A DNA stretch of 64,000 nucleotides from Akkermansia sp. Lineage in GTDB: Bacteria > Verrucomicrobiota > Verrucomicrobiia > Verrucomicrobiales > Akkermansiaceae. The position numbers were made by a program, and so were the translations under genes. The DNA lies in contig JAFVIC010000003.1 of assembly GCA_017477935.1 (NCBI GenBank), positions 64,961 through 128,960 on the forward strand, given 5' to 3'. This document shows positions 1 through 37,939 of the stretch, one piece after another. The notes under the pieces were generated by a model. The model was not told the DNA's origin. It saw only the letters and a list, made by a program, of their open reading frames with translations, and did no database searches. The stretch's first letter is position 1. Each line of letters begins with the position of its first letter.

Positions 1-562
1 CCGAGCGAAAGTAACCGACATGCTGCGCGGCTCCCAACGCGCCGGGCTCCCCCCGCAGCTCACCCGCCTGAGCACTTACGGCATACTCTCCAACCTCACC
101 GGCCCCAAACTCCGCGCCCTTTTCCGCGCCCTGCAAGAGGGCGGCCTCATCTGCACCTCCGGCGGCGAAATGCCCCTCATCACCCTCACAGCCAAGGGCG
201 AAGAGGTCATGAAAGAACAAGCCCCGGCACGGCTCTCACGCCGCATTTGGGCGGCAGACGCCATCAAGCAGGTGCGGGCCTCCACCCTCAAGCGCCGCTC
301 CGAGCGCGTGCTCAATGCCATGCAGCTCGGCCGCATAGACAAGGCGCTCTTCGAGCACCTCACTGAGCTGCGCCGTGACCTCGCCGCCGAGTACCGCATG
401 CCCGTCTTCCGCGTGCTCAGCACCGAAACCCTACGCGCCATGGCCACCGTCAAACCCACCACCCTCGAAGCCGCCTCGCGCCTCAAAGGCGTCGGCCCCT
501 GGGCTAAACAACACGTCCTCCGCGCCTTCGTGGAGTTGATTTGCGATTACGAACAGGTTTGA
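1..562 (+). CDS. recQ: RecQ-family helicase, C-terminal part (RQC + HRDC); 5' end outside window
   Basis: Frame is open from the window edge. RQC-like segment (TYGILS...LITLTAKG) is followed by an HRDC domain (LFEHLTELRRDLA..MPVFRVLSTETL.AMA..KP.T....LKGVG). Confidence 0.8.
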   Translation, partial: RAKVTDMLRGSQRAGLPPQLTRLSTYGILSNLTGPKLRALFRALQEGGLICTSGGEMPLITLTAKGEEVMKEQAPARLSRRIWAADAIKQVRASTLKRRSERVLNAMQLGRIDKALFEHLTELRRDLAAEYRMPVFRVLSTETLRAMATVKPTTLEAASRLKGVGPWAKQHVLRAFVELICDYEQV

Positions 563-670
563 TTCCGGCTTCTATCCCGCCTGCAATCTGCAACTTACCG
601 AATATCGGGCAATTATACGCATTCGCCTCTATTCATTGAATGCTTTGCATAAATAAAGAGGACTATCGCA

Positions 671-1702
671 CTAACTGTCCGAACTTGTGGACTCCAACCG
701 TCGTTTCCACTGCGCGACCTCTTCAACACGGCCTGTTTCTTCCAGAAGTTCGCAAAGTACATCTATAGCCTCTATATAACCTTCGTTTGCAGCCCTTTCG
801 TAATATTTTATTGCCATATCTACGTCTGGATCTATACGTTCATTCCCATAATGGTAAATTTCTGCAAGGGACATATTTTCTCTAACCTTCACATCTTTTT
901 CACTTAAAGCCACGTCAGATTTCATTGGCATCGAGTCGCAAAAATTGTCAGATACTATTTTGAATAACTTCTTATGTATCTTTACTCGTTCTACAACGAT
1001 AGAGGGAAAAGTCGGTTGTGAACCCATTTGTTTCTGTTTTTCCTGACTTATAATTTTCTCCACATATTTTTTTTGCAATTTACAATTTATACCAAGCAAA
1101 ATACCAACGCAATACTTTCGAATATTACGGCAAAAATAAAGGCCGTCATTTACTTCAATCTCAGGCGAACTTAACTGATTAGTAAAATCCAAACGATACT
1201 CATTTTCGTACCACCAGTCTCTCCCCTTATATGCTAAAGGTGTATACAATTTATCCCACGATGGTTTTCCGGATTTGTCTTTTGACCACCCTAAATCTTG
1301 AGATCTTAAAAATACGCGATGAATATTATAAACAACCTTCAATAATCTAATATCTGAATCGAACGTCGTGTAAATAACACGGCCGTTTTTAAAAACATGA
1401 TCATACGGGATATCGAATACCAGACATACACCTTGGTGTGAATCTCCATAATTCCCCCATATAGAAAGGGAACTCATCAATCTGGAGCACGACAGTATTA
1501 AAAATGGTGTATCGCGTCTGACTGATTCGATTACGTATTTTGCCATATAATAATCAGCTGGCGACTCCGACAAATGTGTAGGCAAATATTCAGCAGGATC
1601 GTTAGTCCTGCTAATGTCCGTTAATTTAAGCTTCCCCTCCAATAAAAACTCCGTAAGATATTCAGCTTTGATGTAGTGATACAGCCTTAATATTTTACCC
1701 AT
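671..1702 (-). CDS. DUF2971-like protein with a C-terminal Sel1-like repeat
   Basis: N-terminal LYHY..., NDPAE, LSCS...SLSIWGNYGDSHQGVCLVF and YKGRDWWYENEYRL match the DUF2971 pattern (MW.HY...H.G.C..F; K...W.YE.E.R). C-terminal LAEIYHYG...DVDMAIKYYERAANEG resembles Sel1. Confidence 0.75.
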   Translation of the reverse strand: MGKILRLYHYIKAEYLTEFLLEGKLKLTDISRTNDPAEYLPTHLSESPADYYMAKYVIESVRRDTPFLILSCSRLMSSLSIWGNYGDSHQGVCLVFDIPYDHVFKNGRVIYTTFDSDIRLLKVVYNIHRVFLRSQDLGWSKDKSGKPSWDKLYTPLAYKGRDWWYENEYRLDFTNQLSSPEIEVNDGLYFCRNIRKYCVGILLGINCKLQKKYVEKIISQEKQKQMGSQPTFPSIVVERVKIHKKLFKIVSDNFCDSMPMKSDVALSEKDVKVRENMSLAEIYHYGNERIDPDVDMAIKYYERAANEGYIEAIDVLCELLEETGRVEEVAQWKRRLESTSSDS

Positions 1703-1802
1703 ATTCTATAACTTATCAATACTAATTTTTACCTACTAACCTCCTTACTTAAGCAACTTAATCGCTCATAAATACGTCAGGGTATTATATCTGCTCACCT
1801 CA

Positions 1803-2723
1803 TTATTTATTCACAATACCAAAAGGTATATGAACAGATGGCGTTATCTGGCTTGCCGGTTCAAGATGTCCCATCTGGTCATCGAAAAACAAATGAGGTC
1901 TAAAAATTTCCAATACCTTTTTCTTTTCTACCCCTCCCAAGAAAAATGCTTCTGCAGCAGTTATCCCCCATTGCCTTAATGTGGTCACTACTCGTTCGTG
2001 CGCAGGGGCATTTCGAGCTGTAACAATTGCGATGCGCAATCGAGGATTATATTCTCTGTTTCTTTCTTGCAAGCGTTGTTCCCAAGCCTGAATTTTTGCG
2101 AGTTTTTCTATCAATTTCTGCAATGGTCCTGCCATCATTGGTATTTGAGCTTTCTCGCGTTCTTCTTTCTGATACTCAGGCAATCCTTTTTCCTGATATA
2201 CAACTTCAGATGAATCATCTGCGATAACTCCGTCAAAATCAAACGCTATTCGTAACTCCCTCGTTTGAGGATCTTCGGGTGCTGATGTTGTAAGGACGCA
2301 ACCGGCTGGCAACCCCTGTTTAATAGCATTCTCAACATCAGTATGGTCGGCACTCAAAAAGAGACAACAATCAAAGGCCTCCATGTACGGATATGGATCT
2401 CGCCCTGCTGTAAAAACACCCCTCGTTATCCCCAATTCGTAATACTCACACGATTTGAAGGCCCTTAATCCGCTAATGGGTGAATTTCGCGATAGAAGAA
2501 TAACCTCTATAATTTGATTTTTTGTAAGTGAATTAAACTGTAACAATCTTTTTACGAAAGGAAAAGCGATACCCTTCTCTAATATCTTATCTCTATTATC
2601 CCATTGATATCCCATGTACTCGCGTTCTCCTTTTTCGAGAAAAATTCTATTTTCTTCTTCCAAGTCAAACAACGCTCTACTTGACACAGCAATAACTAAC
2701 TTGTTATCTGTACTAAATCCCAT
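1803..2723 (-). CDS. 5'-nucleotidase (PF06189 / cN-I-like, HAD fold)
   Basis: LVIAVSSRALFDL, LLSRNS, LRIAFDFDGV, IVTAR.APAHERV..TLR.WGI...EAFFLGG, HLFFDDQ: the characteristic motif set of this family. Confidence 0.9.
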   Translation of the reverse strand: MGFSTDNKLVIAVSSRALFDLEEENRIFLEKGEREYMGYQWDNRDKILEKGIAFPFVKRLLQFNSLTKNQIIEVILLSRNSPISGLRAFKSCEYYELGITRGVFTAGRDPYPYMEAFDCCLFLSADHTDVENAIKQGLPAGCVLTTSAPEDPQTRELRIAFDFDGVIADDSSEVVYQEKGLPEYQKEEREKAQIPMMAGPLQKLIEKLAKIQAWEQRLQERNREYNPRLRIAIVTARNAPAHERVVTTLRQWGITAAEAFFLGGVEKKKVLEIFRPHLFFDDQMGHLEPASQITPSVHIPFGIVNK

Positions 2724-2735
2724 ATTTGCTATATT

Positions 2736-3140
2736 CTAACTCAATAGTTTAGAAAGATTATAACTTTCTTGTAATAATCTTTTCACCTCACATTCCCAAA
2801 TAACAACTACCTTCCACCCTAATACTTCCAACTTTTCATAAATACACTTATCTCTGGCAACATTCTCTGCAAATTTGGCATTCCAGAAGTCAACATTTGT
2901 CGCAGGAGTACTAGCATATTTGCAACCAACGTGCCTGTGCCAAAAGCAACCGTTCACAAAGATCGCCACTTTATGCCGAGGGAGAACAATATCCGGCTTT
3001 CCTGGCAAATCATTGCGATGAAGACGAAACCTGTACCCCATAGCATGCAAAGCCCTCCGAACAAGCATCTCAGGTTTTGTATGCTTTCCCTTAATTGCCG
3101 ACATGTTACGTCGCCGCTGTTCTGGAGTATGAACATCCAT
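2736..3140 (-). CDS. vsr: Very short patch repair endonuclease
   Basis: MDVHTPEQRRRNMSAIKGKHTKPE, PGKPDIV, FVNGCFWHRH, FWNAK..NV.RD, GWKVVVIWEC. Confidence 0.95.
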   Translation of the reverse strand: MDVHTPEQRRRNMSAIKGKHTKPEMLVRRALHAMGYRFRLHRNDLPGKPDIVLPRHKVAIFVNGCFWHRHVGCKYASTPATNVDFWNAKFAENVARDKCIYEKLEVLGWKVVVIWECEVKRLLQESYNLSKLLS

Positions 3141-3199
3141 ACGTTAACACACTCTACTACAAAATATTTTTTTGTCAAGTCTTCCACTCTGCTATCCAG

Positions 3200-3736
3200 G
3201 GCAGACGCATTTGAGTTGTGTCATAAGCTCTCGAGGTACGCCCCGGCAGTGTTTTTACAGAAGTAGACGCAGGGCATGGGAGAGTGGAGGAACGAGTAGA
3301 TCGGGATTTGAGTTTTGTCACAGGGGGATGGAATTGGGAAAAACTTTCAGCTCTGGTAGTAGTGGAAAGCACGAGCTACAATAAAAAGAAGCAGACGGAA
3401 AGCACAGAAAACCGTTGCTATATAACAAATTTACCCAGAGGGAGTAGCGCAATTATCACACATGCAATTCGTAATCATTGGCAGGTTGAAAGCATGCATT
3501 GGGTGCTTGATGTAGTTTTCGGAGAAGATACTTGTCGAAAACGAGTGTACAATGCAGCAGAAAACTATTCACGAATGATGAAAGTGGTATTGAGCTTGTT
3601 GCGCAATCATAAGAAGAAGTCCGGGGGAACAAAATCGTTGGCAAGAATGAGAAAACAAGCCGCATAGAATACACGAGTACTGGAGGAAATCCTCTTTAGT
3701 GCATTCGGCGCAAAAAACGAAACAGCGGAAAGTCAA
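3200..3736 (+). mobile_element. ISAs1-family (H-repeat) transposase remnant, pseudogenised
   Basis: In-frame GHGRVEER (3272-3295), RCYITNL, IRNHWQVESMHWVLDVVFGED and NAAENYS. The N-terminus is missing. TAG at 3665 interrupts KQAA*NTRVLEEIL, where ISAs1 transposases usually have W. Confidence 0.85.
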
Positions 3737-4096
3737 TAAGAAATCCCGACATCGAAATGCGTTTGCCCTGCTCTGCTATCTGCCCAAGAATATGAAAATT
3801 GAAGAAGTCTGCCAGATATGAACCTGCAATATATAGTAAGATAGAGCGCAGCGACTACATACCCTGAGTATATTGAATTGAGATAGTCGTTTCTGATAGG
3901 GTAGAGCGTTGAACGTAAGCATACATCCTGCCACTTTAGATATGGTTCTGAAATAACCATCCGCTCATGTATCGCAAAAACCGCGACATCCTTTTCCTTC
4001 GAGTTTTTGCTGATTTTTCTGCTCCGCTAAGGTTCTTCCACCTCACTACATTCAGAGCACCTCCCAACTACGCAATAGTATCATGACAAAAATGAA

Positions 4097-4126
4097 TTGA
4101 CATCAGGGGGGATGGAATGATATAAG
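4097..4126 (+). promoter_or_regulatory. sigma70-type promoter of the MTase-REase operon
   Basis: TTGACA (4097-4102), 18 bp spacer, TATAAG (4121-4126) preceded by TGn. Confidence 0.6.
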
Positions 4127-4216
4127 TATCACATACGCCAGACGTACACCAGAGAGGGAGATAAAATACCTTCCTAAGAGCCTAAAGGAAGACGCAAGTC
4201 TCAATAATATTAGAAT

Positions 4217-5494
4217 ATGTCCAATCTCAGCCACTGTCAGCAGCTCATTTTCGATATAATTCGAAAACATCCAACCTTCTCAAACATACAAGCTAACGAG
4301 GCAATTGCTGCTGCTTCCCATTTTCTTCAAAATCCATATGGGGATATTCCTTTAATCAACAAAAAGCTGCAATCCGAGTTACTTTCTGCTATTGACGCAA
4401 CATATAATCGAGAACAAGGAATCATGGGAGCCGAAGATACTGACGAGCTTCCTAATATTGAACTTCCTTCACTTTTCGATGATGTTCCTTACCCCCCACC
4501 AGCTGAATACAATTTTACATTCATAGATTTATTTGCTGGCATTGGAGGCTTCAGACAGGCTTTCCAAAACGCTGGTGGGAAATGTGTATTCAGCTCCGAG
4601 TGGAACAAATACGCACAGAAAACATATGCTGCAAATTATGGAGAAATTCCATATGGTGATATTAGAGCTATCCCAAAAGAACAAATCCCCAGACATGATG
4701 TTCTTTGTGCGGGCTTCCCCTGCCAACCCTTCTCTCTGGCAGGAGTTTCTAAAAAGAATTCACTTGGGAGAAAGCATGGCTTTGAAGACGAGACCCAAGG
4801 TACTCTTTTCTTCGAAATTAAAGAAATCCTTCGACTGAAGAGACCAAAAGCGTTTATGCTGGAAAATGTCAAAAATCTTTTAGCTCACGATAAAGGAAAA
4901 ACATTTGAAGTAATCAGACGCTCACTTGTAGACGAGTTGGGATATGTGATCAGCTACAAAATAGTAAATGGTGCTGCTTGGGTTCCTCAGCATCGTGAGC
5001 GTATTTACATACTCGGATTTGACCCGAAACAGGTAAATATTAAATGCGATGAAATCAATGTACCTGATAAACCGGAGTCTGGCTACATATACCCCAAACT
5101 TTCCGGAATAATTAAGCGGCGTCTGGACGGTTATACACTCGGTCCTGGCACCTGGGCAACCTTGGAACGTCACAAAGCCCACCACGAAAAGGCCGGCAAC
5201 GGATTTGGTTACGGATTGCTAACGTGGCCGATGAAGGCCAACGCCGTCACCAGAACAATTTCTGCCAGATATCACAAAGATGGCGCTGAAATACTAGTTG
5301 AGCAAGAGGGTGACAGACCCCGCAAGCTCTCTGTTGAAGAAGCCATGCAACTCCAAGGCTACAACCCCGGCAGATTTGTATTCCCTGTCTCAGCTACACA
5401 GGCTTATACCCAAATAGGTAACAGCGTTGTTGTGCCAGCAATTGAGGCTTCGGCAAAGGTGATAGCAAAGATACTAAAAGAAAAATCCATATGA
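4217..5494 (+). CDS. dcm: DNA (cytosine-5)-methyltransferase, Dcm/M.EcoRII type (probably CCWGG)
   Basis: FIDLFAGIGG, GFPCQPFS, ENVKNL, QHRERIY and IGNSV motifs. Target-recognition region H..AGNGFGY...TISARYHKDGAEIL resembles Dcm/M.EcoRII. Confidence 0.93.
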   Translation: MSNLSHCQQLIFDIIRKHPTFSNIQANEAIAAASHFLQNPYGDIPLINKKLQSELLSAIDATYNREQGIMGAEDTDELPNIELPSLFDDVPYPPPAEYNFTFIDLFAGIGGFRQAFQNAGGKCVFSSEWNKYAQKTYAANYGEIPYGDIRAIPKEQIPRHDVLCAGFPCQPFSLAGVSKKNSLGRKHGFEDETQGTLFFEIKEILRLKRPKAFMLENVKNLLAHDKGKTFEVIRRSLVDELGYVISYKIVNGAAWVPQHRERIYILGFDPKQVNIKCDEINVPDKPESGYIYPKLSGIIKRRLDGYTLGPGTWATLERHKAHHEKAGNGFGYGLLTWPMKANAVTRTISARYHKDGAEILVEQEGDRPRKLSVEEAMQLQGYNPGRFVFPVSATQAYTQIGNSVVVPAIEASAKVIAKILKEKSI

Positions 5495-6723
5495 ACTGGA
5501 GCCCGGGACACCTTTCAAAATACTTCAAAGGCGTATGCGTCAAACGACTTTCTGCAACAGAAAGTGATCCGACCGTATCTCACGGTCATGAGTTTCAAGG
5601 AGTCCGTGCCTTTGTCGATTTATTTGGCAAACCAACTGACGGGGAAAAAATCGTACTCCCAGCTCGCTTTATCTATTTGAGCGATGAAGCACAACATAAT
5701 GCCAATGGCACTCTGACCTTCTACGATAGCCGATGGAACAAGCCTCACAGAGCGGCTGAATACAGGCTCTATTACACAGACAACCTCGTAACCGAGGCCA
5801 TGTACACCGATGATTGCCTACTTATAGCCAAAGATACCAATGACGAGGCCCTTGTCATTATCGCTAAGGCAGAAAGTTTGATTCTATCAGATATATTGTG
5901 GCTCTTCGGACTTACGCAAGATATTAAAGCAGGCAGATTTAATTATGTACCTGCAAAAGAACTCGATAACAGAGAACTTCCTGCTACTTTTACTTGGTTA
6001 CTGGAGTTGCTAGGTATCCCCTTACCCTCTACAACAGATTACCTTGCAGAGATGCATGAGCGCTTTGGACTTGTATTTCCCGACACTGTTACGTTCTCTG
6101 CATTTGCCAGAAGCAAGAGTAATTATCCCCACGCGCTGGATGGCAGCGCTGATGATGTACTTTATGACTGGTATAATACCGAAGAACATCTTTTTACAAT
6201 CTTTGAAGAATCAATTATTGCCAAACGAATAGAAGCAGGCTTTACGCCTAAGAGCTTTATAGAATACGCTCTGTCAGTTTTAAATCGAAGAAAGTCACGA
6301 GCCGGGCAAGGTTTGGAAAATCACCTTTCACAATTATTTGATGACCACCAGATTCGCTATTCCCGAACACCAGTAACCGAGAACAAATCAAAACCTGATT
6401 TCCTGTTCCCGGGTATTACATACTACCGCGACTCTGATTTCCCGGCGAACTTACTCCACATGCTCGGCGTAAAAACCACCTGCAAGGACCGATGGAGACA
6501 AGTTCTCGTAGAAGCAGACAGAATACCGAACAAACACCTTCTTACTCTTCAGGGGGCTATTTCTGTAAATCAAACATCAGAAATGCAACATCACAACCTC
6601 CAGCTTGTAGTACCTAAAGCCATCCATAGCTCATACACACCAGCACAGCAAAGTTGGTTGATGACAGTAGATGACTTTGTTACAAATATGCGCAACACGC
6701 AATTTGAATTCATGCTAAACTAA
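5491..6723 (+). CDS. Type IIE restriction endonuclease, EcoRII family (N effector + C catalytic domains)
   Basis: N-terminal KRLSA...RL.YY. C-terminal NRRKSRAGQGLENHL, KPDFLFPG, LGVKTTCKDRWRQVL.EADRI and HLLTLQ..IS.NQ. ATGA overlap with the MTase stop. Confidence 0.9.
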   Translation: MNWSPGHLSKYFKGVCVKRLSATESDPTVSHGHEFQGVRAFVDLFGKPTDGEKIVLPARFIYLSDEAQHNANGTLTFYDSRWNKPHRAAEYRLYYTDNLVTEAMYTDDCLLIAKDTNDEALVIIAKAESLILSDILWLFGLTQDIKAGRFNYVPAKELDNRELPATFTWLLELLGIPLPSTTDYLAEMHERFGLVFPDTVTFSAFARSKSNYPHALDGSADDVLYDWYNTEEHLFTIFEESIIAKRIEAGFTPKSFIEYALSVLNRRKSRAGQGLENHLSQLFDDHQIRYSRTPVTENKSKPDFLFPGITYYRDSDFPANLLHMLGVKTTCKDRWRQVLVEADRIPNKHLLTLQGAISVNQTSEMQHHNLQLVVPKAIHSSYTPAQQSWLMTVDDFVTNMRNTQFEFMLN

Positions 6724-6958
6724 AGAAGTATAACACCTATTTGTAACATCGTAATTTTACGCAACTTCAGAATAGCATAACGAGATTTTTCGGAATAGAG
6801 ATCACGCAATCAGGCTTCTCTGCGAATCCGAAGCTCTGGGCAAAAAGGTCTTCTATATTACCTGCGCTGCTCGTTAATTCCGTAGCTTTACTCGCCCAGC
6901 GTCGAAAGTTTACTGTTGAAGTTCTTTAGTGAGCTTTAGAAGCTATCCCCCCAAAAAA

Positions 6959-6993
6959 CTCCGGCTCGCGTTGCGGGAGCAAGCGAGCCGGAG
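6959..6993 (-). terminator. Intrinsic terminator after the Sel1 gene
   Basis: CTCCGGCTCGC/GCGAGCCGGAG stem followed on the minus strand by a T-run. Confidence 0.7.
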
Positions 6994-7025
6994 AACCCAA
7001 TAAAAACCAAAACAACAAATGCAAA

Positions 7026-7586
7026 TCAGCGGCGGCCGAGGCGTTCGAGCTGGGCGACGGCATCGGCGTGGCCGGTGGCGGCGGCGAGTTCGAGGAAGCG
7101 AACAGCCTTGCGGCGGATGAGGGAGTGGGGAGCGGAGTCCACGGAGAGGAGGTAACGAGCGTAGTCGTAGTGGTGCTCGGAGCTGGGGAAGCCGGAGACG
7201 AGGGTGCGGTAGAGAGAGTCGAGCTCGGCGCGGTCCTCCTCGGTATTGCGCTTAAGGAGCAGCGAGATGAGGGTGCAGAGGGGTTGCTCGAGGTCGTATA
7301 CATTCACCACCTCGTGCAGCCAGTTGATGGCGCGGTCGTTGTCACCGATGGAGAGGTAATAGTCGGCGAGGGCGCAGAGGGATTCGGGGTCTTCGAGCTC
7401 AGCGGCTTTCTGCCAGCAGGCAACGGCGGTCTGCAGGTCCTGAGGGCAGCCGTCAGTGCCCTGAGCGTGTGCCTTGGCGCAGGCGCGAAGTTGCTCAATG
7501 AGTTCATTGTAGGCGGCGATGTAAGCATCGTCGTCATCGTAGAGAGAGTAATCGATTTCGGTAGCAAGCAGAGTGGTGGCGTCCAT
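7026..7586 (-). CDS. Sel1/TPR-like repeat protein
   Basis: AVACWQKAAELEDPESLCALADYY and AVRFLELAAATGHADAVAQL. Confidence 0.75.
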   Translation of the reverse strand: MDATTLLATEIDYSLYDDDDAYIAAYNELIEQLRACAKAHAQGTDGCPQDLQTAVACWQKAAELEDPESLCALADYYLSIGDNDRAINWLHEVVNVYDLEQPLCTLISLLLKRNTEEDRAELDSLYRTLVSGFPSSEHHYDYARYLLSVDSAPHSLIRRKAVRFLELAAATGHADAVAQLERLGRR

Positions 7587-7593
7587 GGTTTAG

Positions 7594-7622
7594 AGTCTAC
7601 TATATGTTTGAGCTGAGGTAAA
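7594..7622 (-). promoter_or_regulatory. Promoter, leaderless-type, of the Sel1 gene
   Basis: TTTACC-17bp-TAGACT on the minus strand, with ATG 7 nt after the -10. Confidence 0.5.
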
Positions 7623-7734
7623 GGAAAAAGTACAATCCGGCCGCCACAATCGGCAAAGTTTTTTTGAGTAGAGCCCCCGGCATGAGCAAGGCGAGTCCCT
7701 CAGCTCATCGAAAACGAAGAGCTGAGAGCCAATC

Positions 7735-9099
7735 TCAGGCCCGCCCCAACACCTCGCTCAGCTCAGCAGGGGCAGAAGCCACGGCATAGAGCGGCACATC
7801 GACCACGGTATAGCTGAAGCCCTGCGAGTCATTTTTACCGGGGGCAATATGGATGGTGCTGACGTTGTGCAGGCTCATGGAAACACGCAAGGCGATGGGG
7901 TGGTGATACCGCTTGCAGAAGCTGCGCAGACTTTTGGCCTGCAGGTTCAGCTCCGCCTTCACCTCGACGGGGAAGATGCGGTAATCGCTCTCGATAAGGA
8001 AATCCACCTCTGCCTGAGCGCGCTCTGCGCTCCAGTAATAGGGCGAGATTGCGCACTCCGCGCGGAGCTGCTGCTGCACATACTGCTCGGTAAGAGCGCC
8101 CTTGTACTGGCCGAAGATGCTGTTGCCCTCCAGTATGACGGACGGGGGCTGTTTGCAGGCAGCCCCCAGCAGTCCGACATCGAGAAAGAACATCTTAAAC
8201 GCGCCGTCCTTGCAGGCAGAAAGCGGCATTTCCGGCTTGCGAACACGCGGCACCATCTGCACCAGAGCCGCGTCATCCAGCCAGCGGATGGGGCCGCGCA
8301 GCTGCGGAGCGCGAACTTTCTCACCCACATCAGCATGCACAAAACGCTTATCCTCGCGGGCGAGCTGGTCGGGCACAGAGTCCCATATCTGTGTGATATA
8401 GTGAGTCTCGGCATCTGTGGCATGTTTGCTGAAATCGTTGCGATAGTCTGAAAGCAGCGCCGCCTGCACACGGCGCACGGCGTGCGGGTTGCGAGATTCC
8501 ACATATTCCTGCACGGCAGCGGGCATGCCACCCACAAAGTAGTACTGGCGCAGCAGTTCCACAAATTTATCGTGGAAAGTGTCCATCATCTCCCAATTAC
8601 GTTTGCGGATAAGCTCCACATACATGCCGAAGCCGGTGGCGTCCAGAAACTCGGTAAAGCTCATGGGGTACATATATACCCGATCCACCTTACCCACGGG
8701 AAAACCGGTACCGGTATGGACGGAAAGCCCCAGCAGTGAACCGGCCGCAATGATGTGGTGCTCCGGTACGTCTTCACAGAAATATTTGAGCGATGTGAGG
8801 GCACAGGGGCACTCCTGTATCTCATCCAGAATGATAAGAGTCTTGCCCGGCACTATCTGCACACGGCTATGCACCTGCAGGGTGTCCATCAGGCGGGGAA
8901 TATCGAAATCCTTCTCGAACGATTGGCGCACAAAATCATCGCGGTCAAAACGCACATAGACTACATTTTTATAATGTTGCCGCCCGAATTCGCGGGCAAG
9001 CCAAGTCTTGCCCACCTGACGTGCGCCAAGGAGCAGCAAGGGTTTTCGGCGTGGATTATTTTTCCACTCTACCAGCTCAGCCATGCACCATCGTTTCAT
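7735..9099 (-). CDS. AAA+ ATPase with DUF4143 / PD-(D/E)XK-like C-terminus
   Basis: GARQVGKT Walker A, LIILDEIQ Walker B, AAGSLLG, PMSFTEFL, GGMP, K.FFLDVGLL, AEVDFLI...PVEVK. Start set at MKRW (9099) because an AGGAG SD and a TTGACT-17-TACATT promoter lie upstream of it. Confidence 0.9.
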   Translation of the reverse strand: MKRWCMAELVEWKNNPRRKPLLLLGARQVGKTWLAREFGRQHYKNVVYVRFDRDDFVRQSFEKDFDIPRLMDTLQVHSRVQIVPGKTLIILDEIQECPCALTSLKYFCEDVPEHHIIAAGSLLGLSVHTGTGFPVGKVDRVYMYPMSFTEFLDATGFGMYVELIRKRNWEMMDTFHDKFVELLRQYYFVGGMPAAVQEYVESRNPHAVRRVQAALLSDYRNDFSKHATDAETHYITQIWDSVPDQLAREDKRFVHADVGEKVRAPQLRGPIRWLDDAALVQMVPRVRKPEMPLSACKDGAFKMFFLDVGLLGAACKQPPSVILEGNSIFGQYKGALTEQYVQQQLRAECAISPYYWSAERAQAEVDFLIESDYRIFPVEVKAELNLQAKSLRSFCKRYHHPIALRVSMSLHNVSTIHIAPGKNDSQGFSYTVVDVPLYAVASAPAELSEVLGRA

Positions 9100-9245
9100 T
9101 CCGGTCTCCTTCCTATCCTTCACCGCCAATGTAGCAAACATGCTCAAAAAAGTCAACATTTTTCTTTATTTTTTAAGGGCGATATTTCACAAAAAACCAA
9201 AACATCCGCAACATATTGTATTTTCTGCGTTTCTATTTTTTTATT

Positions 9246-13938: not shown

Positions 13939-14213
13939 GCACGAGCGGTATGCCTTTTGATTGTATGACGCGGAGCCAGTCACGTCATAAGTGTGAAAAT
14001 CAGCAGGCTTCCGCACCTTTCATACATACCCTTTTCATGCACAAATTACTAAATACGATGCAAGAAAAATTACTTGCCAGCAAAAATCGTTAATGCTACA
14101 ATTCGGAGAAAGTAAGTTTGCCCTCAGCAACACTCAGGCAGCATGCGCATGGTCAAATATATTTTTTCCATCTAAATTGTCAGCCCACAACATTACAGAA
14201 ACAATCGCAACAA

Positions 14214-15689
14214 ATGAAAAATCTTCATTACTTATACCTGCTCATTATCTCTATTTATATCACAACCTTATGCTCTGACACATCGCCTCTCTTTCATTTC
14301 AATCCTTCACCCGATCCATCGATATTCTTTATATCCGGGCAAGCCTTCCGCGAAGGATTAGTTCCCTATGTTGAGTTTGCTGACACAAAAGGGCTTTTAC
14401 TAATCTACATTTACAGTCTATCAACGTATATAAGCAACACTTCCTTCGCCGGAATCTACCTCATCCAGTGCTTCCTTCTTTTTGTAACACTGGCATTTGC
14501 ACAAAAGACTGCAAAAATATATGTTTCTGAAAACGGAAGTTTTGTAGCAGCTCTTTCACTGTGCGTCTTTCTTTTCAATTCATACCCCTATCAACGAGGC
14601 GGCGGAGCCGAAGAATTACTCTGGCCTTTCATGTCAGCTCTTGTATATTGCCTTGCGCGTCACTTTTCTGGCAAGGACGATTTATTTTCTAAATGGTTAT
14701 ACCTGAGTATAGGCATCACTGCAGGAGCCTCGTTCATGATAAAGTATTCGGTCACACTGCCTATAATCATTCTGTTTATTGCTATACTCGCCTACGAGTG
14801 GAAGCGAGTACCTCTGAAAAAAGTTTTGCAGTCTGCACTGTGGGCTCTGTGCGGAGCATCCATAGTCATTTTACCCTGCATCATCCATTTATGGTCCATG
14901 GGCGCGCTTCAAGAATTTGCGGATGAGTACATCCTGACATCCGCACGCTATGGCACCACCGGCCAACAACGAGAATGGTACGTTCACTTACTACGCCCCA
15001 TGCCGGTAAGAAGCCTGTCCGACTTACTCATGTGGATTGCGCTAATCTGGGGTGTGAAATCATACGGTTTCAAATCAATCATCCACACTACACCCTTAAT
15101 GTTTACCATTCTGCTATACCTTCTTTACAAAGGGGAGACGATATCATACTACAACCATTATTACAACTCCATAAATTCCCCATTGATGATAGCATGCTGC
15201 ATATTTTTTGTATCGAAAGCGGAAGAAAAGAAAGAATTAAGAAAAAACAAAGTATTATGTATATCCGCGATAATACTGATTTTTATGACAGCGGGCACAC
15301 AATTCCACCTGTTCGGCGCGGTAGAGAAAGGCCCCCTTGTCTGGAGAGAATCTGCCCACACACCTCTGTACGAGACATTATCTACCCGGCAAAATAAAAA
15401 AGTTCTTTACCTGGGCTGGTTAGACCGAGGGTTCGGCATTCCCAGCAACTGGCGCCCTTGTGGGAGGTATTGGTTCTTGCAAAACTCACCCTCCGACTCC
15501 ATGCGTGCAGAGCAGATGGAGTACATCCGACAAGGAAAACCTGATATCATTCATACGTATTCCAAAGAGTTCGATGATTTCTTTCAAAAATACGGATACA
15601 GTCTTTTCTACACCTATAAGGGCAACTATTTTTATGAGCGAAACAAGCCCATCAACATACCAACCGACAATAAACCAGCCCTCAACTAA
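14214..15689 (+). CDS. Polytopic membrane protein, probable GT-C (ArnT/PMT-like) glycosyltransferase
   Basis: About 10 hydrophobic segments. Periplasmic DPSIF...GLVPYVEFADTKG.L loop, EE motif (AEELLWP) and IKYS are typical of GT39-like proteins. AT-rich. Confidence 0.6.
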   Translation: MKNLHYLYLLIISIYITTLCSDTSPLFHFNPSPDPSIFFISGQAFREGLVPYVEFADTKGLLLIYIYSLSTYISNTSFAGIYLIQCFLLFVTLAFAQKTAKIYVSENGSFVAALSLCVFLFNSYPYQRGGGAEELLWPFMSALVYCLARHFSGKDDLFSKWLYLSIGITAGASFMIKYSVTLPIIILFIAILAYEWKRVPLKKVLQSALWALCGASIVILPCIIHLWSMGALQEFADEYILTSARYGTTGQQREWYVHLLRPMPVRSLSDLLMWIALIWGVKSYGFKSIIHTTPLMFTILLYLLYKGETISYYNHYYNSINSPLMIACCIFFVSKAEEKKELRKNKVLCISAIILIFMTAGTQFHLFGAVEKGPLVWRESAHTPLYETLSTRQNKKVLYLGWLDRGFGIPSNWRPCGRYWFLQNSPSDSMRAEQMEYIRQGKPDIIHTYSKEFDDFFQKYGYSLFYTYKGNYFYERNKPINIPTDNKPALN

Positions 15690-15740
15690 GCGACATCCGT
15701 ACAAAACATAATATACAAACGACCGTATTCGTAAATTAGG

Positions 15741-15769
15741 TTGACCTCAGTGAGCAAATAGGCTATAGT
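15741..15769 (+). promoter_or_regulatory. mscS promoter, leaderless-type
   Basis: TTGACC-17bp-TATAGT, with ATG 6 nt downstream. Confidence 0.65.
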
Positions 15770-15775
15770 GCCGAC

Positions 15776-16597
15776 ATGGCAGAATGGTTTCAGAAGGTAT
15801 ATGGCTATATATCCGGCCCGATGGGGATGGGCTGGGTCACTTTTGCGGTTTATGTCATCATCGGCTGGGTAGCCTGTATCGGACTGGGGCGCCTGCAACG
15901 CAGAATCGACCACACCCGCCGTGAGCAACGGCAGATTTTCACCCTGCTGCTGAAAGCGGCCAAGGGCATCATCTGGGCGCTCGTGCTGGTACAGGGACTT
16001 CGCAGCGTGGGGGTGGATGTCGTGAGCATATTGGGTGCGGCAGGTGTAGCCGGTGTAGCTATCGGCTTTGCCTCGCAGACGGCGCTCAGCAACCTCATCA
16101 GCGGAGCTTTCGTGGTAAGCGAACGCAGTTTTCGCATGGGCGATTACATACAAGTGGGCGGCGAAGAGGGCACAGTGGAGAGCATTAACCTGCTCTCCGT
16201 CTACCTGCGCCGGCCCGACAACACCCTGGTACGCGTGCCCTGTGAAATGCTCATTAAGACCCCGGTGCGCAACCTCACCGGCGCTGAGCTGCGCCGTATT
16301 GACCTCGATATCGGGGTGGACTACTCCAGCGATCTGACCGAAGTGAAAGAGATAATCATGAGTGTTATCACCGAGCGACCGCTGCTCATGAACGAACCGG
16401 CACCGACCGTCACCTTCAGCGGCTTCGGGGACAGCTCGCTCAACCTGCACATCGGCGCCTGGTGCAAGACGGATGTTTACCACGCCGTGCGCTATGAGTT
16501 CGCCACAGCTCTGCTGGCTGCGTTCGCGGAGCGCGGCATCAACATCCCCTTCCCCGTGCGAGCCTTCACAAAATACCAACCGGGCTCGAACGCATGA
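15776..16597 (+). CDS. mscS: Small-conductance mechanosensitive channel
   Basis: GAAGVAGVAIGFASQTALSNLISG, FRMGDYI, GTVESI, IGVDYSSD, GFGDSSLN, GINIPFP. Confidence 0.92.
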   Translation: MAEWFQKVYGYISGPMGMGWVTFAVYVIIGWVACIGLGRLQRRIDHTRREQRQIFTLLLKAAKGIIWALVLVQGLRSVGVDVVSILGAAGVAGVAIGFASQTALSNLISGAFVVSERSFRMGDYIQVGGEEGTVESINLLSVYLRRPDNTLVRVPCEMLIKTPVRNLTGAELRRIDLDIGVDYSSDLTEVKEIIMSVITERPLLMNEPAPTVTFSGFGDSSLNLHIGAWCKTDVYHAVRYEFATALLAAFAERGINIPFPVRAFTKYQPGSNA

Positions 16598-26908: not shown

Positions 26909-27929
26909 ACTCTACCCACTTGGCAATACTCTCACCCTGCCGGTTGGTTATATAGAGCTGGATTTCTTAGAAAGTACCGGTGAACAGTATATCAATACAG
27001 ATTACATACCTGACAACAACACAGGGATTAGCTGTATACATGAATACCGCTCTGCATCAGACACCATCATATTCGGCTGCAGAAATTCCGCTTCCACCGA
27101 AACTCGATTTTACTGCACCCGAGGGGTTCGTTCATCGGAACACACCGCCACAGATGGTTTCGGCTGGGGACAATGGACCATCATAAGGAGCACCATCCAA
27201 ACCATACGCACCCGTCTGACTGGCTCGCTCAATTGGTTGAACTCCATGAAGGCACGCCACCCCATCTATCATACTAACCTAACAGAGCTACCATATAGGC
27301 CTAATTGTCCGCTTTACCTTTTTGCCGCTAATATAGGGAATCAGGTTTCCCTGGCCGCATCGGCACGTATATGGCGTGCCGGAATTTCAGCATATAATCA
27401 CATTGTACATTATTTTATACCTGCTCTTACATCAGACGGTATTCCCTGTATGTACTGCCCCCTGTCAAAAAAAACAATTTTCAATGAAGGCAACGGCAGT
27501 CCCCTGGTGGCAGGAGTAGCGTCCATTGAAGCCCTACGCAAATTACTCATCGCTTTGCCTTCCACCGGCGGAGATATCAAGTTAAGCCTGCCGAGCAATG
27601 CCAACACCCCTGACCTTGCTGAACAAATGGCCTTAACTGCCGCAACCAAGGGATGGACCCTTACCATCTATGAATATCGAAAGAACGTGCCTGCGACATA
27701 TTCACTGCGCCGCGTGCGCGAAGGAGTGTGGTGCCGCAAGACTCCGTCTGAACACGGCCGATACGCTGATAACTCCGGGAAGCGCTGGCAGGTGGAATAC
27801 TGTGCCGACATCTTCACACCCCATGGCCACCCCCCATCTGAACTCGGTTATGAACTTTTTGAAACAGTAAATGAAGCGACCGAAAACTGGGGATTATACC
27901 TGATGGAAGAGTCAGCAACTACTATCTGA
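26892..27929 (+). CDS. Hypothetical protein with phage tail-fibre-like LPxGY.ELxxLESTGxQYI motif and a ConA-like domain
   Basis: TLPVGYIELDFLESTGEQYINTDY; LYLFAAN...RIWRA...FIPAL...G.PCMY. Start ATG 26892 overlaps the upstream stop. Confidence 0.55.
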   Translation: MNIPHKLYPLGNTLTLPVGYIELDFLESTGEQYINTDYIPDNNTGISCIHEYRSASDTIIFGCRNSASTETRFYCTRGVRSSEHTATDGFGWGQWTIIRSTIQTIRTRLTGSLNWLNSMKARHPIYHTNLTELPYRPNCPLYLFAANIGNQVSLAASARIWRAGISAYNHIVHYFIPALTSDGIPCMYCPLSKKTIFNEGNGSPLVAGVASIEALRKLLIALPSTGGDIKLSLPSNANTPDLAEQMALTAATKGWTLTIYEYRKNVPATYSLRRVREGVWCRKTPSEHGRYADNSGKRWQVEYCADIFTPHGHPPSELGYELFETVNEATENWGLYLMEESATTI

Positions 27930-27933
27930 CAAC

Positions 27934-27968
27934 TAAAATGCCATGTGCATATTTTCACATGGCATTTT
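27934..27968. terminator. Bidirectional hairpin between convergent genes
   Basis: AAAATGCCATGTG-CATATTTT-CACATGGCATTTT. Confidence 0.75.
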
Positions 27969-27994
27969 AACTTTCTCCTAATATCTTTTTGAGC

Positions 27995-29461: not shown

Positions 29462-29480
29462 CTGTTGACAAACTCAAAAT

Positions 29481-30371
29481 CTATTTGGCTATCAGCTCAT
29501 ATAAATGGTGAGCAAACACTATGTCATGCAATGCTAAACCTATATTGTAACTGAGAATTTGCTCCTCATCATTTTGTCTACCTTGGACAGTTCCGTCCAA
29601 CACATCAGGCAATTCTGCAAATGATTTAAAACGATTAAAATATTTAAACCCGTCTACATGTGAAGTATCATCTGCAAATACCCGGTCAAACGTCAAGTCA
29701 CAATTTTGAAAGCCTCGCGTATGAACCGGGACAACAAGACAACCGGGACGATAGGCCTCGACAGGAGCAATCAAATCACCAGCGTACGTAATACACGAGA
29801 TAACAACATCACTAGCGCGAACCATCTCCTCCGGAGTTTCGGATACTACAATATTCCAACAGGTATTGTCTCGTATCCACCCCTCAATTCTCTCAACATG
29901 ATCTTTGTATTTCAATAAATTGAGAGTTATCTTTCGTTCAGAATAAATGGCAGCCAGACATTTGATGGTTGCCACACCGGTAGAGCCCAGCCCCATAACA
30001 CCGATGCTCTCAAAATCCGATTTAGCCAAAGTTTCTACCGCGACAGCCGCCACCGCACCGGTGCGGAATGTCGTAATATGGTATGCATCCATCAGGCTCA
30101 ATAACTCACCATCAGAATAGCGATACAACAACAACTCACCATCCACAGATGGCACCCTATTCGAGTATCTGGTTACTATCTTTGCACCAAATACGTTCAA
30201 TGAAGGAACCATGCACGGCATGGTATTCATGAAATTCAGTTCTTCGAATGGAATACTAATCTTATGCGGCAATTTAGATTTCTTTTTAAGGGAAAAGGAC
30301 TCCTTTACCCAAGTTACAGCCTTCGCATAAGACAACTGAGCTTCAACCTGTTCGTTAGTAATGATTTTCAT
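29481..30371 (-). CDS. Ornithine cyclodeaminase / mu-crystallin family protein
   Basis: GAKIVT, LLSLMDA..IT.FRTGAVAA, GVMGLGSTG Rossmann motif, SDVVIS, GLAL.DI..A. Confidence 0.85.
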   Translation of the reverse strand: MKIITNEQVEAQLSYAKAVTWVKESFSLKKKSKLPHKISIPFEELNFMNTMPCMVPSLNVFGAKIVTRYSNRVPSVDGELLLYRYSDGELLSLMDAYHITTFRTGAVAAVAVETLAKSDFESIGVMGLGSTGVATIKCLAAIYSERKITLNLLKYKDHVERIEGWIRDNTCWNIVVSETPEEMVRASDVVISCITYAGDLIAPVEAYRPGCLVVPVHTRGFQNCDLTFDRVFADDTSHVDGFKYFNRFKSFAELPDVLDGTVQGRQNDEEQILSYNIGLALHDIVFAHHLYELIAK

Positions 30372-30382
30372 AATTAGATTGA

Positions 30383-32203: not shown

Positions 32204-32217
32204 AATAACTGATAAAA

Positions 32218-33477: not shown

Positions 33478-33829
33478 TTTCTTTGTTTTGTACTGTTACT
33501 AAACCCGATTTAGAATCAACTTTGTAATGAAGGTGCTGCGGCTAAACGTTGCTACCTGAAGGAGAGAACATTCTCACAAAGCATAAACGCCACGCACATT
33601 ATACCAGAAAGGCTTATTCTTTCAAGCAATTTTCCCGTTCATTCAAAGATTTGCTATTCGCAACACTAAACGCCACCCGCTCAGTTCCACCCTGAGTAGA
33701 AATGAAAGCAGTAAGGTAAACAAAAATAATATTCATAATCGAAGAGGCCCGTTAATTAAATACGATGTATTTTCGGACTGCTATATTTCTTTTTCAGAAA
33801 ATTAAGTGCCTGTTTACGGTCCTTGCCTG

Positions 33830-37917: not shown

Positions 37918-37939
37918 AACATATTAATGTTCTTTAAAT

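What the first reader, a model, noticed from the sequence alone, without database searches (positions are those of the whole stretch)
1803..3140. A cN-I-type 5'-nucleotidase co-transcribed with vsr inside a m5C R-M island
Seen: vsr ends 13 bp before a PF06189 5'-nucleotidase, which is followed by a DUF2971-like gene. All three are on the minus strand, AT-rich, and divergent from a Dcm-type MTase and EcoRII-type REase. Established: Vsr repairs G:T mismatches from m5C deamination, and nucleotide-pool depletion is a known anti-phage strategy (dGTPase, dCTP deaminase). Inference: the nucleotidase is an uncharacterised accessory of the R-M system. It may dispose of 5-methyl-dCMP from DNA turnover, or deplete (d)NMPs during infection. 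This makes a candidate five-gene defence system.
Basis: partly seen in the sequence, partly recalled or inferred. Interest (0 to 1): 0.75.

Follow-up and report, generated by a model that had tools for sequence, protein, structure and literature searches.

The report
Nucleotidase cargo gene beside vsr
A 5'-nucleotidase gene sits just after the mismatch-repair gene vsr in a foreign restriction-modification island, but closely related islands lack it, so it is an add-on from an already catalogued, untested family of defence candidates, not a dedicated partner of vsr.

Summary
Window 1803-2723(-) encodes an intact PF06189 (cN-I type) HAD 5'-nucleotidase. It starts 12 nt after vsr (2736-3140) and is followed by a DUF2971-Sel1 gene. 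All lie in a 6.4 kb low-GC island that also carries a divergent Dcm/EcoRII-C pair.

Two related Akkermansia-like genomes carry the same EcoRII-Dcm-Vsr core at the same recQ/Sel1 site without the nucleotidase. There vsr is followed directly by DUF2971-Sel1, or by DUF4238. So the position after vsr is a variable cargo slot.

None of 102 more distant nucleotidase loci has vsr, dcm, EcoRII or DUF2971 within 10 kb. The closest homologues sit inside or beside type I R-M operons, beside a D12-methylase type II R-M, or beside AbiD.

The protein matches PADLOC PDC-S08 over its full length. PADLOC's PDC candidates, 145 in all and untested, were defined because they occur embedded in R-M and BREX systems. 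No experimental test was found in the papers searched.

Most likely it is a mobile single-gene defence candidate, a nucleotide monophosphatase with a degenerate second HAD domain, that rides in R-M islands. A role specific to m5C or Vsr is unlikely.

The parts
563..6952 (.). Low-GC (about 0.42) genomic island between recQ and a Sel1-repeat gene. This site is a variable defence hotspot in this lineage.
   Evidence: GC and GC3 contrast with the flanks. Similarity to the sister genome L133 at the flanks ends at window 562 and resumes at 6953. In a contig that encodes the identical Sel1 protein (L100), a PLD-type type IV methyl-directed REase lies next to that gene instead.
671..1702 (-). DUF2971 plus Sel1-repeat protein (343 aa). 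It is a weak match to the PADLOC candidate PDC-S31.
   Evidence: Pfam DUF2971 1e-05 and Sel1 1.5e-05. PDC-S31 1.3e-11. Its orthologue in L133 follows vsr directly with a 4-nt overlap, and the two proteins are only 41% identical.
1803..2723 (-). PF06189 (cN-I type) HAD 5'-nucleotidase, 306 aa. It consists of an N-terminal degenerate HAD-like domain and a C-terminal catalytic HAD domain. It matches PADLOC PDC-S08.
   Evidence: Pfam 4.1e-123. PADLOC 4.9e-132. D162, D164, T235, K267, D281 and D282 are invariant in 21 homologues. N-half against C-half by hhalign: probability 90%, E 1.7e-6. AF2 model pLDDT 89. The C-terminal domain matches AphA.
2724..2735 (-). 12-nt spacer between the vsr stop codon and the nucleotidase ATG.
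   Evidence: Sequence read directly. No terminator-like site was found here.
2736..3140 (-). vsr, the very-short-patch (T:G mismatch) repair endonuclease, 134 aa.
   Evidence: Pfam Vsr 5.2e-31. TIGR00632 at 150 bits. 80% identical to the Akkermansia sp. Vsr P0128. Similarity to the sister islands stops just after the WECE motif, at about window 2788.
3151..3178 (-). Best sigma-70-like promoter match, upstream of vsr. It is a candidate promoter for vsr, the nucleotidase and DUF2971.
   Evidence: TTGACA-16-TAGAGT, 10 of 12 matches. This is a consensus match only, and such sites are not enriched over shuffles.
3284..3667 (+). Truncated IS4-family (DDE_Tnp_1) transposase remnant between vsr and dcm.
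   Evidence: Pfam DDE_Tnp_1 2.9e-4, covering only profile positions 131-195 of 200. In the sister island L133 the gene called between vsr and dcm is an 81-aa HTH gene.
4217..5494 (+). Dcm-type C5 cytosine DNA methyltransferase, 425 aa.
   Evidence: Pfam DNA_methylase 7.8e-79. TIGR00675 at 283 bits. PADLOC MTase_II 1.4e-123.
5491..6723 (+). EcoRII-C-domain restriction endonuclease, 410 aa. It overlaps dcm by 4 nt.
   Evidence: Pfam EcoRII-C 3.4e-68, with no EcoRII-N hit. PADLOC REase_II 6.7e-39.

Best explanation
The island is a composite. Its conserved core is an ordinary EcoRII-type/Dcm restriction-modification pair with its cognate Vsr, which repairs T:G mismatches that arise from deamination of 5-methylcytosine. 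The position immediately 3' of vsr is a variable slot, probably read from the vsr promoter, that holds different single-gene defence candidates in different lineages.

In this lineage the slot holds the PF06189 nucleotidase in front of DUF2971-Sel1. The nucleotidase is a self-contained, horizontally mobile gene of the family PADLOC lists as candidate PDC-S08. It is not a dedicated partner of Vsr or Dcm.

Biochemically (inferred) it is a Mg2+-dependent HAD phosphatase acting on nucleoside 5'-monophosphates. Catalysis is in the C-terminal domain. The N-terminal HAD-like domain has lost the catalytic aspartates and probably serves as a regulatory or ligand-binding module.

The most likely biological role (inferred, untested) is anti-phage protection through nucleotide-pool manipulation. 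It would dephosphorylate (d)NMPs so that nucleotides released by DNA breakdown during infection or restriction cannot be re-used for phage DNA synthesis.

My confidence by layer:
- Independent cargo rather than a Vsr partner: about 0.85.
- Nucleotide monophosphatase chemistry: about 0.75.
- Defence role: about 0.45.
- The specific (d)NMP-salvage-blocking mechanism: about 0.25.
For: Architecture:
- Sister islands at the same site have the EcoRII-Dcm-Vsr core but no nucleotidase. In L133/L134, vsr overlaps DUF2971-Sel1 by 4 nt. In L138, vsr is followed by DUF4238.
- Flanks are 77-87% identical and island genes 68-76% identical between window and L133.
- vsr similarity between the variants ends at its 3' tail, so the boundary of the variable region is there.

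No specific partner:
- 0 of 80 GTDB-representative loci and 0 of 22 metagenome or viral loci have vsr, dcm, EcoRII or DUF2971 within 10 kb.
- The largest neighbour family occurs in only 8 of 80 loci.

Defence association:
- PDC-S08 match at 4.9e-132. PDCs were defined by being embedded in type I RM, BREX or DISARM systems.
- Homologues at 68-70% identity sit between hsdS and hsdR. The 74% homologue sits beside a KAP NTPase and a type I RM. The 69% homologue sits after AbiD. The 60% homologue sits after a D12 MTase and a type II REase.
- Two E. coli chromosomal copies lie in integrase-bearing islands beside a tRNA gene, with type I RM-type genes, a Septu-like ATPase plus HNH gene, and a PT-dependent REase.
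- L113 again has the gene between hsdM and hsdR.

Chemistry:
- Full-length PF06189 match, which is the human NT5C1A family (PMC5098729).
- Residues I assign to HAD motifs I-IV are invariant.
- The C-terminal domain resembles AphA nucleotidase/phosphotransferase, probability 0.99.
- Internal duplication is supported.

Precedent for HAD phosphatases in nucleotide-depleting defence: Chp (PMC12715507) and PUA-Cal-HAD (PMC12871103).
Against: - No experimental test of any PF06189 protein in phage defence was found. In one P. aeruginosa panel, PDC-S08 carriers split 50/50 between phage-resistant and phage-susceptible strains (PMC10855318).
- In 71 GTDB loci most immediate neighbours are housekeeping genes such as porins, RecC, Mfd, topoisomerase and transporters. 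By my rough reading of the per-family counts, only about 10-15% have strong PADLOC hits.
- The family is unusually conserved for a defence effector, about 50-55% identity across phyla. Its eukaryotic members are metabolic enzymes.
- An NMP phosphatase is a weaker lever on DNA synthesis than the known dNTP-directed effectors.
- No sensor or trigger has been identified.
- Whether the nucleotidase was gained in the window lineage or lost in the sister lineages is not resolved.
Confidence: 0.6

Rival explanations
1. Metabolic passenger. The nucleotidase is a nucleotide-pool or salvage housekeeping enzyme that spreads horizontally. It happens to lie in the island and has no role in phage defence or in R-M or Vsr function.
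For: - Immediate neighbours in 71 representative genomes are mostly housekeeping genes.
- The 67% homologue P0007 sits alone between a NUDIX gene and an MFS transporter.
- Cross-phylum conservation is very high, about 50-55%.
- Eukaryotic family members are metabolic cN-I enzymes.
- PDC-S08 showed no bias towards phage resistance in one strain panel.
Against: - Six of eight near-homologue contexts are R-M or Abi loci, including repeated embedding between hsdS and hsdR.
- E. coli copies lie in integrase-bearing islands beside a tRNA gene.
- Type I RM lies within 10 kb in 4 of 102 distant loci. By my own rough estimate, not computed here, chance would give about 1% or less.
- The gene is rare and accessory: found in at least 6 of 5,426 complete E. 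coli genomes, a lower bound from a blastn search.
Confidence: 0.28
2. The nucleotidase is a dedicated accessory of the m5C R-M/Vsr module, for example disposing of 5-methyl-dCMP, and the five genes form one defence system.
For: - A 12-nt spacer and the same strand as vsr, with no terminator-like site.
- Island-like composition shared with the other four genes.
- The identical arrangement occurs in contigs from at least six samples.
Against: - Two sister islands have the same R-M/Vsr core without the nucleotidase.
- No vsr or dcm lies near any of 102 other family members.
- The closest homologues accompany m6A-type R-M systems or AbiD.
- The 68% Vsr homologue P0140 sits in a classical MTase-HpaII-Vsr operon without a nucleotidase.
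Confidence: 0.04
3. General R-M companion acting on methylated nucleotides. The enzyme removes, or responds to, methylated dNMPs (m6-dAMP, m5-dCMP) released when modified DNA is degraded. It would tune a danger signal or prevent re-incorporation, whatever the R-M type.
For: - Five of eight near-clade contexts are R-M loci of three kinds: type I, D12 type II, and Dcm/EcoRII.
- m6-dAMP derived from the methylome is a demonstrated trigger for a HAD-containing defence system (PMC12871103).
- The conserved but catalytically dead N-terminal HAD-like domain could be a ligand sensor.
Against: - Purely inferential, with no substrate data.
- R-M operons host many unrelated embedded defence genes, so the adjacency needs no functional link.
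- Most family members have no R-M nearby.
Confidence: 0.08

Closest known systems
PADLOC phage defence candidate PDC-S08 (Payne et al. 2024, 'guilt-by-embedding')
   Same: Full-length HMM match: 4.9e-132, residues 1-306 on profile 15-317 of 323. The close homologues P0003 and P0004, and the locus L113, are embedded in type I R-M operons, which is how these candidates were defined.
   Different: The window copy is not embedded in a type I RM, BREX or DISARM system. It lies downstream of vsr in a type II m5C R-M island. PDC-S08 is itself an untested candidate with no known mechanism.
Eukaryotic cytosolic 5'-nucleotidase I (cN-IA/NT5C1A, Pfam PF06189)
   Same: Same Pfam family over the whole length, 410 bits. 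It is a HAD-type phosphatase, and the residues I assign to the catalytic motifs are conserved.
   Different: This is a bacterial, horizontally mobile, rare accessory gene. Substrate preference and allosteric regulation are unknown. There is no solved structure of a close relative.
Nucleotide-depleting anti-phage effectors with HAD phosphatases: Chp (CARF-HAD, type III CRISPR) and PUA-Cal-HAD
   Same: These are HAD phosphatases that protect by collapsing nucleotide pools (PMC12715507, PMC12871103). The window protein is also a HAD phosphatase in defence islands.
   Different: Those effectors act on (d)NTPs and, for Chp, IMP. They have identified sensor domains or partners (CARF; PUA-Calcineurin-CE) and known triggers (cA4; m6-dAMP). 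The window protein belongs to a different HAD family and is predicted to act on monophosphates. It has no recognised sensor apart from its degenerate N-terminal HAD-like domain.
EcoRII/Dcm/Vsr module of enterobacteria
   Same: A C5-MTase and an EcoRII-C endonuclease in an overlapping operon, with a Vsr gene adjacent.
   Different: Here vsr is divergent from dcm rather than overlapping its 3' end. The endonuclease shows no EcoRII-N domain hit. An IS remnant separates the two units, and extra cargo genes follow vsr.
Class B acid phosphatase AphA (HAD/DDDD superfamily)
   Same: Best structural match of the catalytic C-terminal domain: probability 0.97-0.99 over about 160 residues. AphA is a nucleotidase/phosphotransferase.
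   Different: Only 12-17% identity, TM about 0.4. AphA is periplasmic and single-domain. The window protein has an additional N-terminal pseudo-HAD domain.

Membership tests
Pfam PF06189 5'-nucleotidase (cN-I type) | Full-length match to the family profile above the gathering threshold | tested here: met
   410.4 bits against a cutoff of 28.2, residues 3-305 on profile 3-301 of 302.
Pfam PF06189 5'-nucleotidase (cN-I type) | HAD catalytic motifs I-IV: DxD nucleophile/acid pair, Thr/Ser, Lys, and the acidic DD pair | tested here: met
   D162, D164, T235, K267, D281 and D282 are invariant in 21 homologues. Assigning these residues to the motifs rests on my knowledge of the HAD superfamily.
Pfam PF06189 5'-nucleotidase (cN-I type) | Hydrolysis of nucleoside 5'-monophosphates | not testable with these tools
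   Needs an enzyme assay. No bacterial member of the cN-I family is listed among the characterised microbial enzymes in a 2021 review (PMC8475336).
PADLOC PDC-S08 defence candidate | Match to the PDC-S08 HMM | tested here: met
   PDLC04900 at 4.9e-132, 437.7 bits.
PADLOC PDC-S08 defence candidate | Occurs embedded in type I RM, BREX or DISARM systems (the basis on which the candidate was defined) | tested here: met
   Met for family members P0003 and P0004 (between hsdS and hsdR) and L113. The window copy itself is in a type II R-M island, not embedded in a type I system.
PADLOC PDC-S08 defence candidate | Confers protection against phage | not testable with these tools
   The 145 PDCs are described as untested. 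No experimental paper was found.
Vsr very-short-patch repair endonuclease | Match to the Vsr profiles above threshold, with the core sequence motifs present | tested here: met
   PF03852 at 106.8 bits. TIGR00632 at 150.2 bits against a cutoff of 97.85. The PGKPDI, GCFWHRH and WECE segments are conserved against P0128. That these segments carry the catalytic and zinc-binding residues is from my own knowledge of E. coli Vsr.
Vsr very-short-patch repair endonuclease | Genomic linkage to a C5 cytosine methyltransferase | tested here: met
   dcm lies 1,076 nt away on the other strand. The same linkage is seen in L133, L138 and L135.
EcoRII-type type II R-M | EcoRII-C catalytic domain adjacent to a Dcm-type MTase | tested here: met
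   EcoRII-C 3.4e-68, with a 4-nt overlap with dcm.
EcoRII-type type II R-M | N-terminal EcoRII-N effector domain (type IIE behaviour) | tested here: not met
   Residues 1-234 give no Pfam hit at E <= 0.01.
Proposed five-gene defence system (vsr, nucleotidase, DUF2971, dcm, EcoRII) | Conserved co-occurrence of the five genes in related loci | tested here: not met
   Sister islands lack the nucleotidase. L138 also lacks DUF2971. 0 of 102 nucleotidase loci carry the other four genes.
Nucleotide-depletion defence effectors (dCTP deaminase, dGTPase, Chp, PUA-Cal-HAD) | Infection-triggered depletion of (d)NTP pools, with an identified sensor or trigger | not testable with these tools
   No sensor domain is recognised. 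The N-terminal domain is a degenerate HAD copy of unknown role. Pool measurements need experiments.

The most novel reading that the evidence does not exclude
The PF06189 nucleotidase is a companion of restriction-modification systems in general. Through its degenerate N-terminal HAD-like domain or its active site, it would recognise methylated deoxynucleoside monophosphates (m5-dCMP here, m6-dAMP next to type I or D12 systems) released from modified host DNA during infection. It would then either clear this methylome-derived signal or be switched on by it to drain the dNMP pool. That would link the host's own methylation mark to a nucleotide-level defence.
Probability: 0.07. Interest if true: 0.7.

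Novelty: new member of a known kind. Interest (0 to 1): 0.3.

Why it matters
The R-M/Vsr core is textbook biology. The nucleotidase family has already been flagged as a defence candidate, so this locus adds an instance rather than a new concept.

Its value is as a natural comparison. The same island exists with and without the nucleotidase, and with three different cargo sets after vsr. This shows that the vsr-distal position of an R-M island can act as a slot for add-on genes, much like the embedded positions in type I R-M operons.

If PF06189 proteins do protect against phage, they would be the first defence effectors acting at the nucleoside-monophosphate level. They would also be bacterial relatives of human cN-I enzymes. 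That is worth a simple plating test but is not established here.

Tried and rejected
- RNA evidence for co-transcription: no RNA run holds the stretch.
- Laying contigs of four low-share gut metagenome runs on window 1-7700, to look for island variants that skip the nucleotidase. The contigs were only fragmented and low-depth, and no informative joint was found.
- JGI metagenome scan with the window protein, meant to enlarge the near clade. It returned only relatives at 53% identity or less, apart from one 62-residue fragment at 58%.
- Phage origin. Only 6 relatives in 2.9 million IMG/VR contigs, three of them at contig ends, and 3 short unannotated INPHARED records. The gene is not typically phage-borne.
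- Sequence search of the PDB found nothing. Foldseek of the whole model gave only spurious two-Rossmann (GT-B type) matches with rmsd above 15 Angstrom. Only the C-terminal HAD domain gave meaningful hits.
- Compositional separation of the nucleotidase from the rest of the island. GC and GC3 are the same as for vsr, DUF2971, dcm and EcoRII, so composition cannot date the insertion.
- Shared flanking cassette sequence between the window nucleotidase and its near homologues. DNA similarity is confined to the coding region plus at most 12 nt upstream, and I looked for no mobile-element signature beyond that.
- A conserved operon partner across the family: none. The largest neighbour cluster occurs in 8 of 80 loci.
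- Literature search for an experimentally characterised bacterial PF06189 defence protein: none found.
Full report
**1. What is in the sequence**

Window 563-6952 is a 6.4 kb island with GC about 0.42 and GC3 of 0.34-0.41. The host flanks have GC 0.62-0.66 and GC3 0.77-0.82: recQ C-terminus at 20-562, a Sel1 gene at 7026-7586, and gcvP.

On the minus strand, in order of transcription:
- vsr, 2736-3140. Pfam Vsr 5.2e-31; TIGR00632 at 150 bits.
- A 12-nt spacer.
- A 306-aa PF06189 5'-nucleotidase, 1803-2723, at 4.1e-123 and full length.
- A 100-nt spacer.
- A DUF2971 plus Sel1-repeat gene, 671-1702.

Upstream on the other strand:
- A truncated DDE_Tnp_1 transposase remnant, 3284-3667.
- A Dcm-type C5-methyltransferase, 4217-5494.
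- An EcoRII-C endonuclease, 5491-6723, overlapping dcm by 4 nt, with no EcoRII-N domain detected.

Two details need adjusting: the spacer is 12 nt rather than 13, and the IS remnant was not mentioned.

Co-transcription is plausible. The spacing is tight and no terminator-like site lies between the genes. The best promoter-like match is upstream of vsr. However, promoter-like sites here are not more frequent than in shuffled sequence, and no RNA run holds the region.

The same arrangement, with an identical nucleotidase protein, occurs in contigs from at least six samples. Sequencing runs that hold the stretch are gut metagenomes, several of them labelled bovine or sheep. The named relatives of the island proteins are 'Akkermansia sp.' MAGs.

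**2. The decisive comparison: the same island without the nucleotidase**

The closest Vsr relatives led to orthologous loci.

In an Akkermansia sp. MAG (L133, and also L134) the same chromosomal site reads: AAA_14/DUF4143 - Sel1 ... recQ. It carries EcoRII-C, Dcm, a small HTH gene, and Vsr (80% identical). DUF2971-Sel1 starts 4 nt before the vsr stop. There is no nucleotidase.

Flank DNA is 77-87% identical to the window. EcoRII/dcm are 75% identical, vsr 76%, and DUF2971 68% over the part that aligns.

A third variant (L138) has EcoRII-Dcm-Vsr (75%) followed 18 nt later by a DUF4238 gene.

DNA similarity between the vsr genes stops right after the conserved WECE motif. Each variant has its own Vsr tail and its own downstream gene.

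A further contig that encodes the identical Sel1 protein has a PLD-type type IV methyl-directed endonuclease next to that gene instead.

Two conclusions follow. The site is a variable defence hotspot. EcoRII-Dcm-Vsr is the conserved core, and the position 3' of vsr is a cargo slot. The nucleotidase is one optional occupant. Whether it was gained here or lost elsewhere is not resolved.

**3. Neighbourhood survey of the nucleotidase family**

Distant loci:
- In 80 loci from GTDB representative genomes (+/-10 kb) and 22 metagenome or viral loci, tblastn found no vsr, dcm, EcoRII or DUF2971.
- All-against-all clustering of flanking ORFs found no conserved partner. The largest neighbour family occurs in 8 of 80 loci.
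- Pfam scans of the immediate upstream and downstream genes of 71 loci show mostly housekeeping functions.
- PADLOC scans show a minority with strong defence hits: Mokosh three times, Cas7, JetD, dGTPase, HsdS, DruE and DpdF. By my rough reading of the per-family counts this is about 10-15% of neighbours.
- Type I R-M lies within 10 kb in L019, L045, L086 and L113. In L113 the gene is again between hsdM and hsdR.

The closest homologues give a sharper picture:
- 74% identity: beside a KAP NTPase and a type I R-M.
- 70% and 68%: between hsdS and hsdR inside type I operons.
- 69%: directly after AbiD.
- 60%: after a D12 adenine methylase and a type II REase.
- 67%: alone, between a NUDIX gene and an MFS transporter.
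- One more on a contig that ends at the gene.

Two E. coli chromosomal copies, of a more distant branch (E. coli plasmid copies are about 40% identical to the window protein), lie in integrase-bearing islands beside tRNA-Sec and tRNA-Leu genes. These islands also carry type I R-M-type genes, a Septu-like ATPase with an HNH gene, and a PT-dependent endonuclease.

The gene is rare in E. coli, found in at least 6 of 5,426 complete genomes. It is present on 46 plasmids and almost absent from phages.

**4. Relation to what is known**

The protein matches PADLOC PDC-S08 over its full length at 4.9e-132. According to Payne et al. (bioRxiv 10.1101/2024.01.29.577857), PDC models were built from gene families found embedded in type I RM, BREX or DISARM systems. 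The 145 candidates are untested.

So the idea that this nucleotidase is a defence candidate is already catalogued. My survey independently reproduces its basis.

I found no experimental characterisation of a bacterial PF06189 protein. One strain-panel study found PDC-S08 evenly split between phage-resistant and phage-susceptible P. aeruginosa.

**5. The protein**

PF06189 is the family of human cN-IA/NT5C1A. D162, D164, T235, K267, D281 and D282, which I assign to HAD motifs I-IV, are invariant in the alignment.

The AlphaFold model is confident: pLDDT 89, pTM 0.86. Only its C-terminal half finds solved relatives. The best are AphA class B nucleotidase/phosphotransferase and other HAD domains.

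Profile-profile comparison shows that the N-terminal half (1-150) is a diverged copy of the C-terminal HAD domain: probability 90%, E 1.7e-6, 118 aligned columns. Ser-Ser replaces the two motif I aspartates, and Ser-Ala-Asp replaces the DDQ motif.

The N-terminal half is nevertheless highly conserved. I infer a regulatory or ligand-binding pseudo-enzyme domain. The helical insert between motifs I and II fits a small-molecule substrate, by my knowledge of HAD cap types.

**6. Mechanism and rivals**

The best-supported account has these parts:
- The R-M/Vsr core works as in enterobacteria. Dcm methylates, the EcoRII-C enzyme restricts, and Vsr corrects T:G mismatches from m5C deamination (established knowledge).
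- The nucleotidase is an autonomous add-on.
- Its chemistry as a nucleoside-monophosphate phosphatase is a strong inference.
- A defence role is moderately supported by genomic context.
- The specific idea that it prevents re-use of (d)NMPs released by DNA degradation is speculative. Precedent comes from HAD phosphatases that defend by nucleotide depletion, namely Chp and PUA-Cal-HAD.

Rivals:
- A purely metabolic passenger. This has substantial support from the housekeeping contexts and the high conservation.
Sections 2 and 3 largely refute it.
- A general R-M companion acting on, or sensing, methylated dNMPs. This is not excluded and is the most novel reading.

**7. Verdict**

The finding is real as an observation. 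It is ordinary in its R-M/Vsr part. In its nucleotidase part it is an instance of an already listed but untested defence-candidate family.

The useful new information is the natural with/without comparison, the variable slot after vsr, and the tandem-HAD architecture. Interest is modest.

Noticed in passing
window 671-2790; L133:5314-6752; L138:5672-7297: The position immediately 3' of vsr behaves as a cargo slot. Three island variants at the same chromosomal site carry DUF2971-Sel1 (overlapping vsr by 4 nt), DUF4238, or nucleotidase plus DUF2971-Sel1. vsr similarity ends right after the WECE motif. Whether a cargo slot downstream of vsr is general was not surveyed.
   Followed up: partly
window 671-1702: The DUF2971-Sel1 protein is only 41% identical to its positional orthologue in L133, while the neighbouring Vsr is 80% identical. 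It weakly matches PADLOC PDC-S31 (1e-11). This is a fast-evolving gene of unknown function that may be the more constant partner of vsr in this lineage.
   Followed up: partly
window 3284-3667: A truncated IS4-family DDE transposase fragment lies between vsr and dcm. In the sister island L133 the gene called between vsr and dcm is an 81-aa HTH gene, probably a controller protein. No open reading frame of 50 aa or more on the dcm strand lies just upstream of dcm in the window, so regulation of this R-M copy may differ.
   Followed up: partly
window 7735-9159: The flanking AAA_14/DUF4143 ATPase gene, which has host-like GC and is conserved in the sister genomes, matches PADLOC candidate PDC-S01 at 5.7e-164.
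   Followed up: no
L100:1866-2852: A contig that encodes the identical Sel1 protein carries a PLD/NgoFVII-like type IV methyl-directed restriction enzyme next to that gene (PADLOC mREase_IV 2.3e-35), in place of the Dcm/EcoRII island. I would expect such an enzyme to be incompatible with a resident Dcm (my inference, not tested).
   Followed up: partly
window 1803-2723 (protein residues 1-150 against 151-306): The PF06189 protein is an internal tandem duplication of a HAD domain. The N-terminal copy has lost the catalytic aspartates but stays highly conserved across phyla (hhalign probability 90%).
   Followed up: yes
L089:6029-7977; L092:6009-7978: In the type I R-M operons that embed the nucleotidase homologues, the specificity subunit is fused to a nucleotidyltransferase (NTP_transf_2/Polbeta) domain. 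It is preceded by an NTase_sub_bind gene, an MNT/HEPN-like pair inside the operon.
   Followed up: no
window 27000-39000 and 14000-16000: Two further low-GC regions. One is a roughly 12 kb surface or capsular polysaccharide biosynthesis cluster (Polysacc_synt_3, Stealth, Caps_synth, PS_pyruv_trans, Glyphos_transf). The other is a PMT_2 glycosyltransferase gene. Neither is related to the finding.
   Followed up: partly
L094:7081-8939: The 67% nucleotidase homologue with no defence neighbours is divergently paired with a NUDIX hydrolase gene. One GTDB locus has a dGTPase immediately upstream. These are possible nucleotide-metabolism pairings.
   Followed up: no
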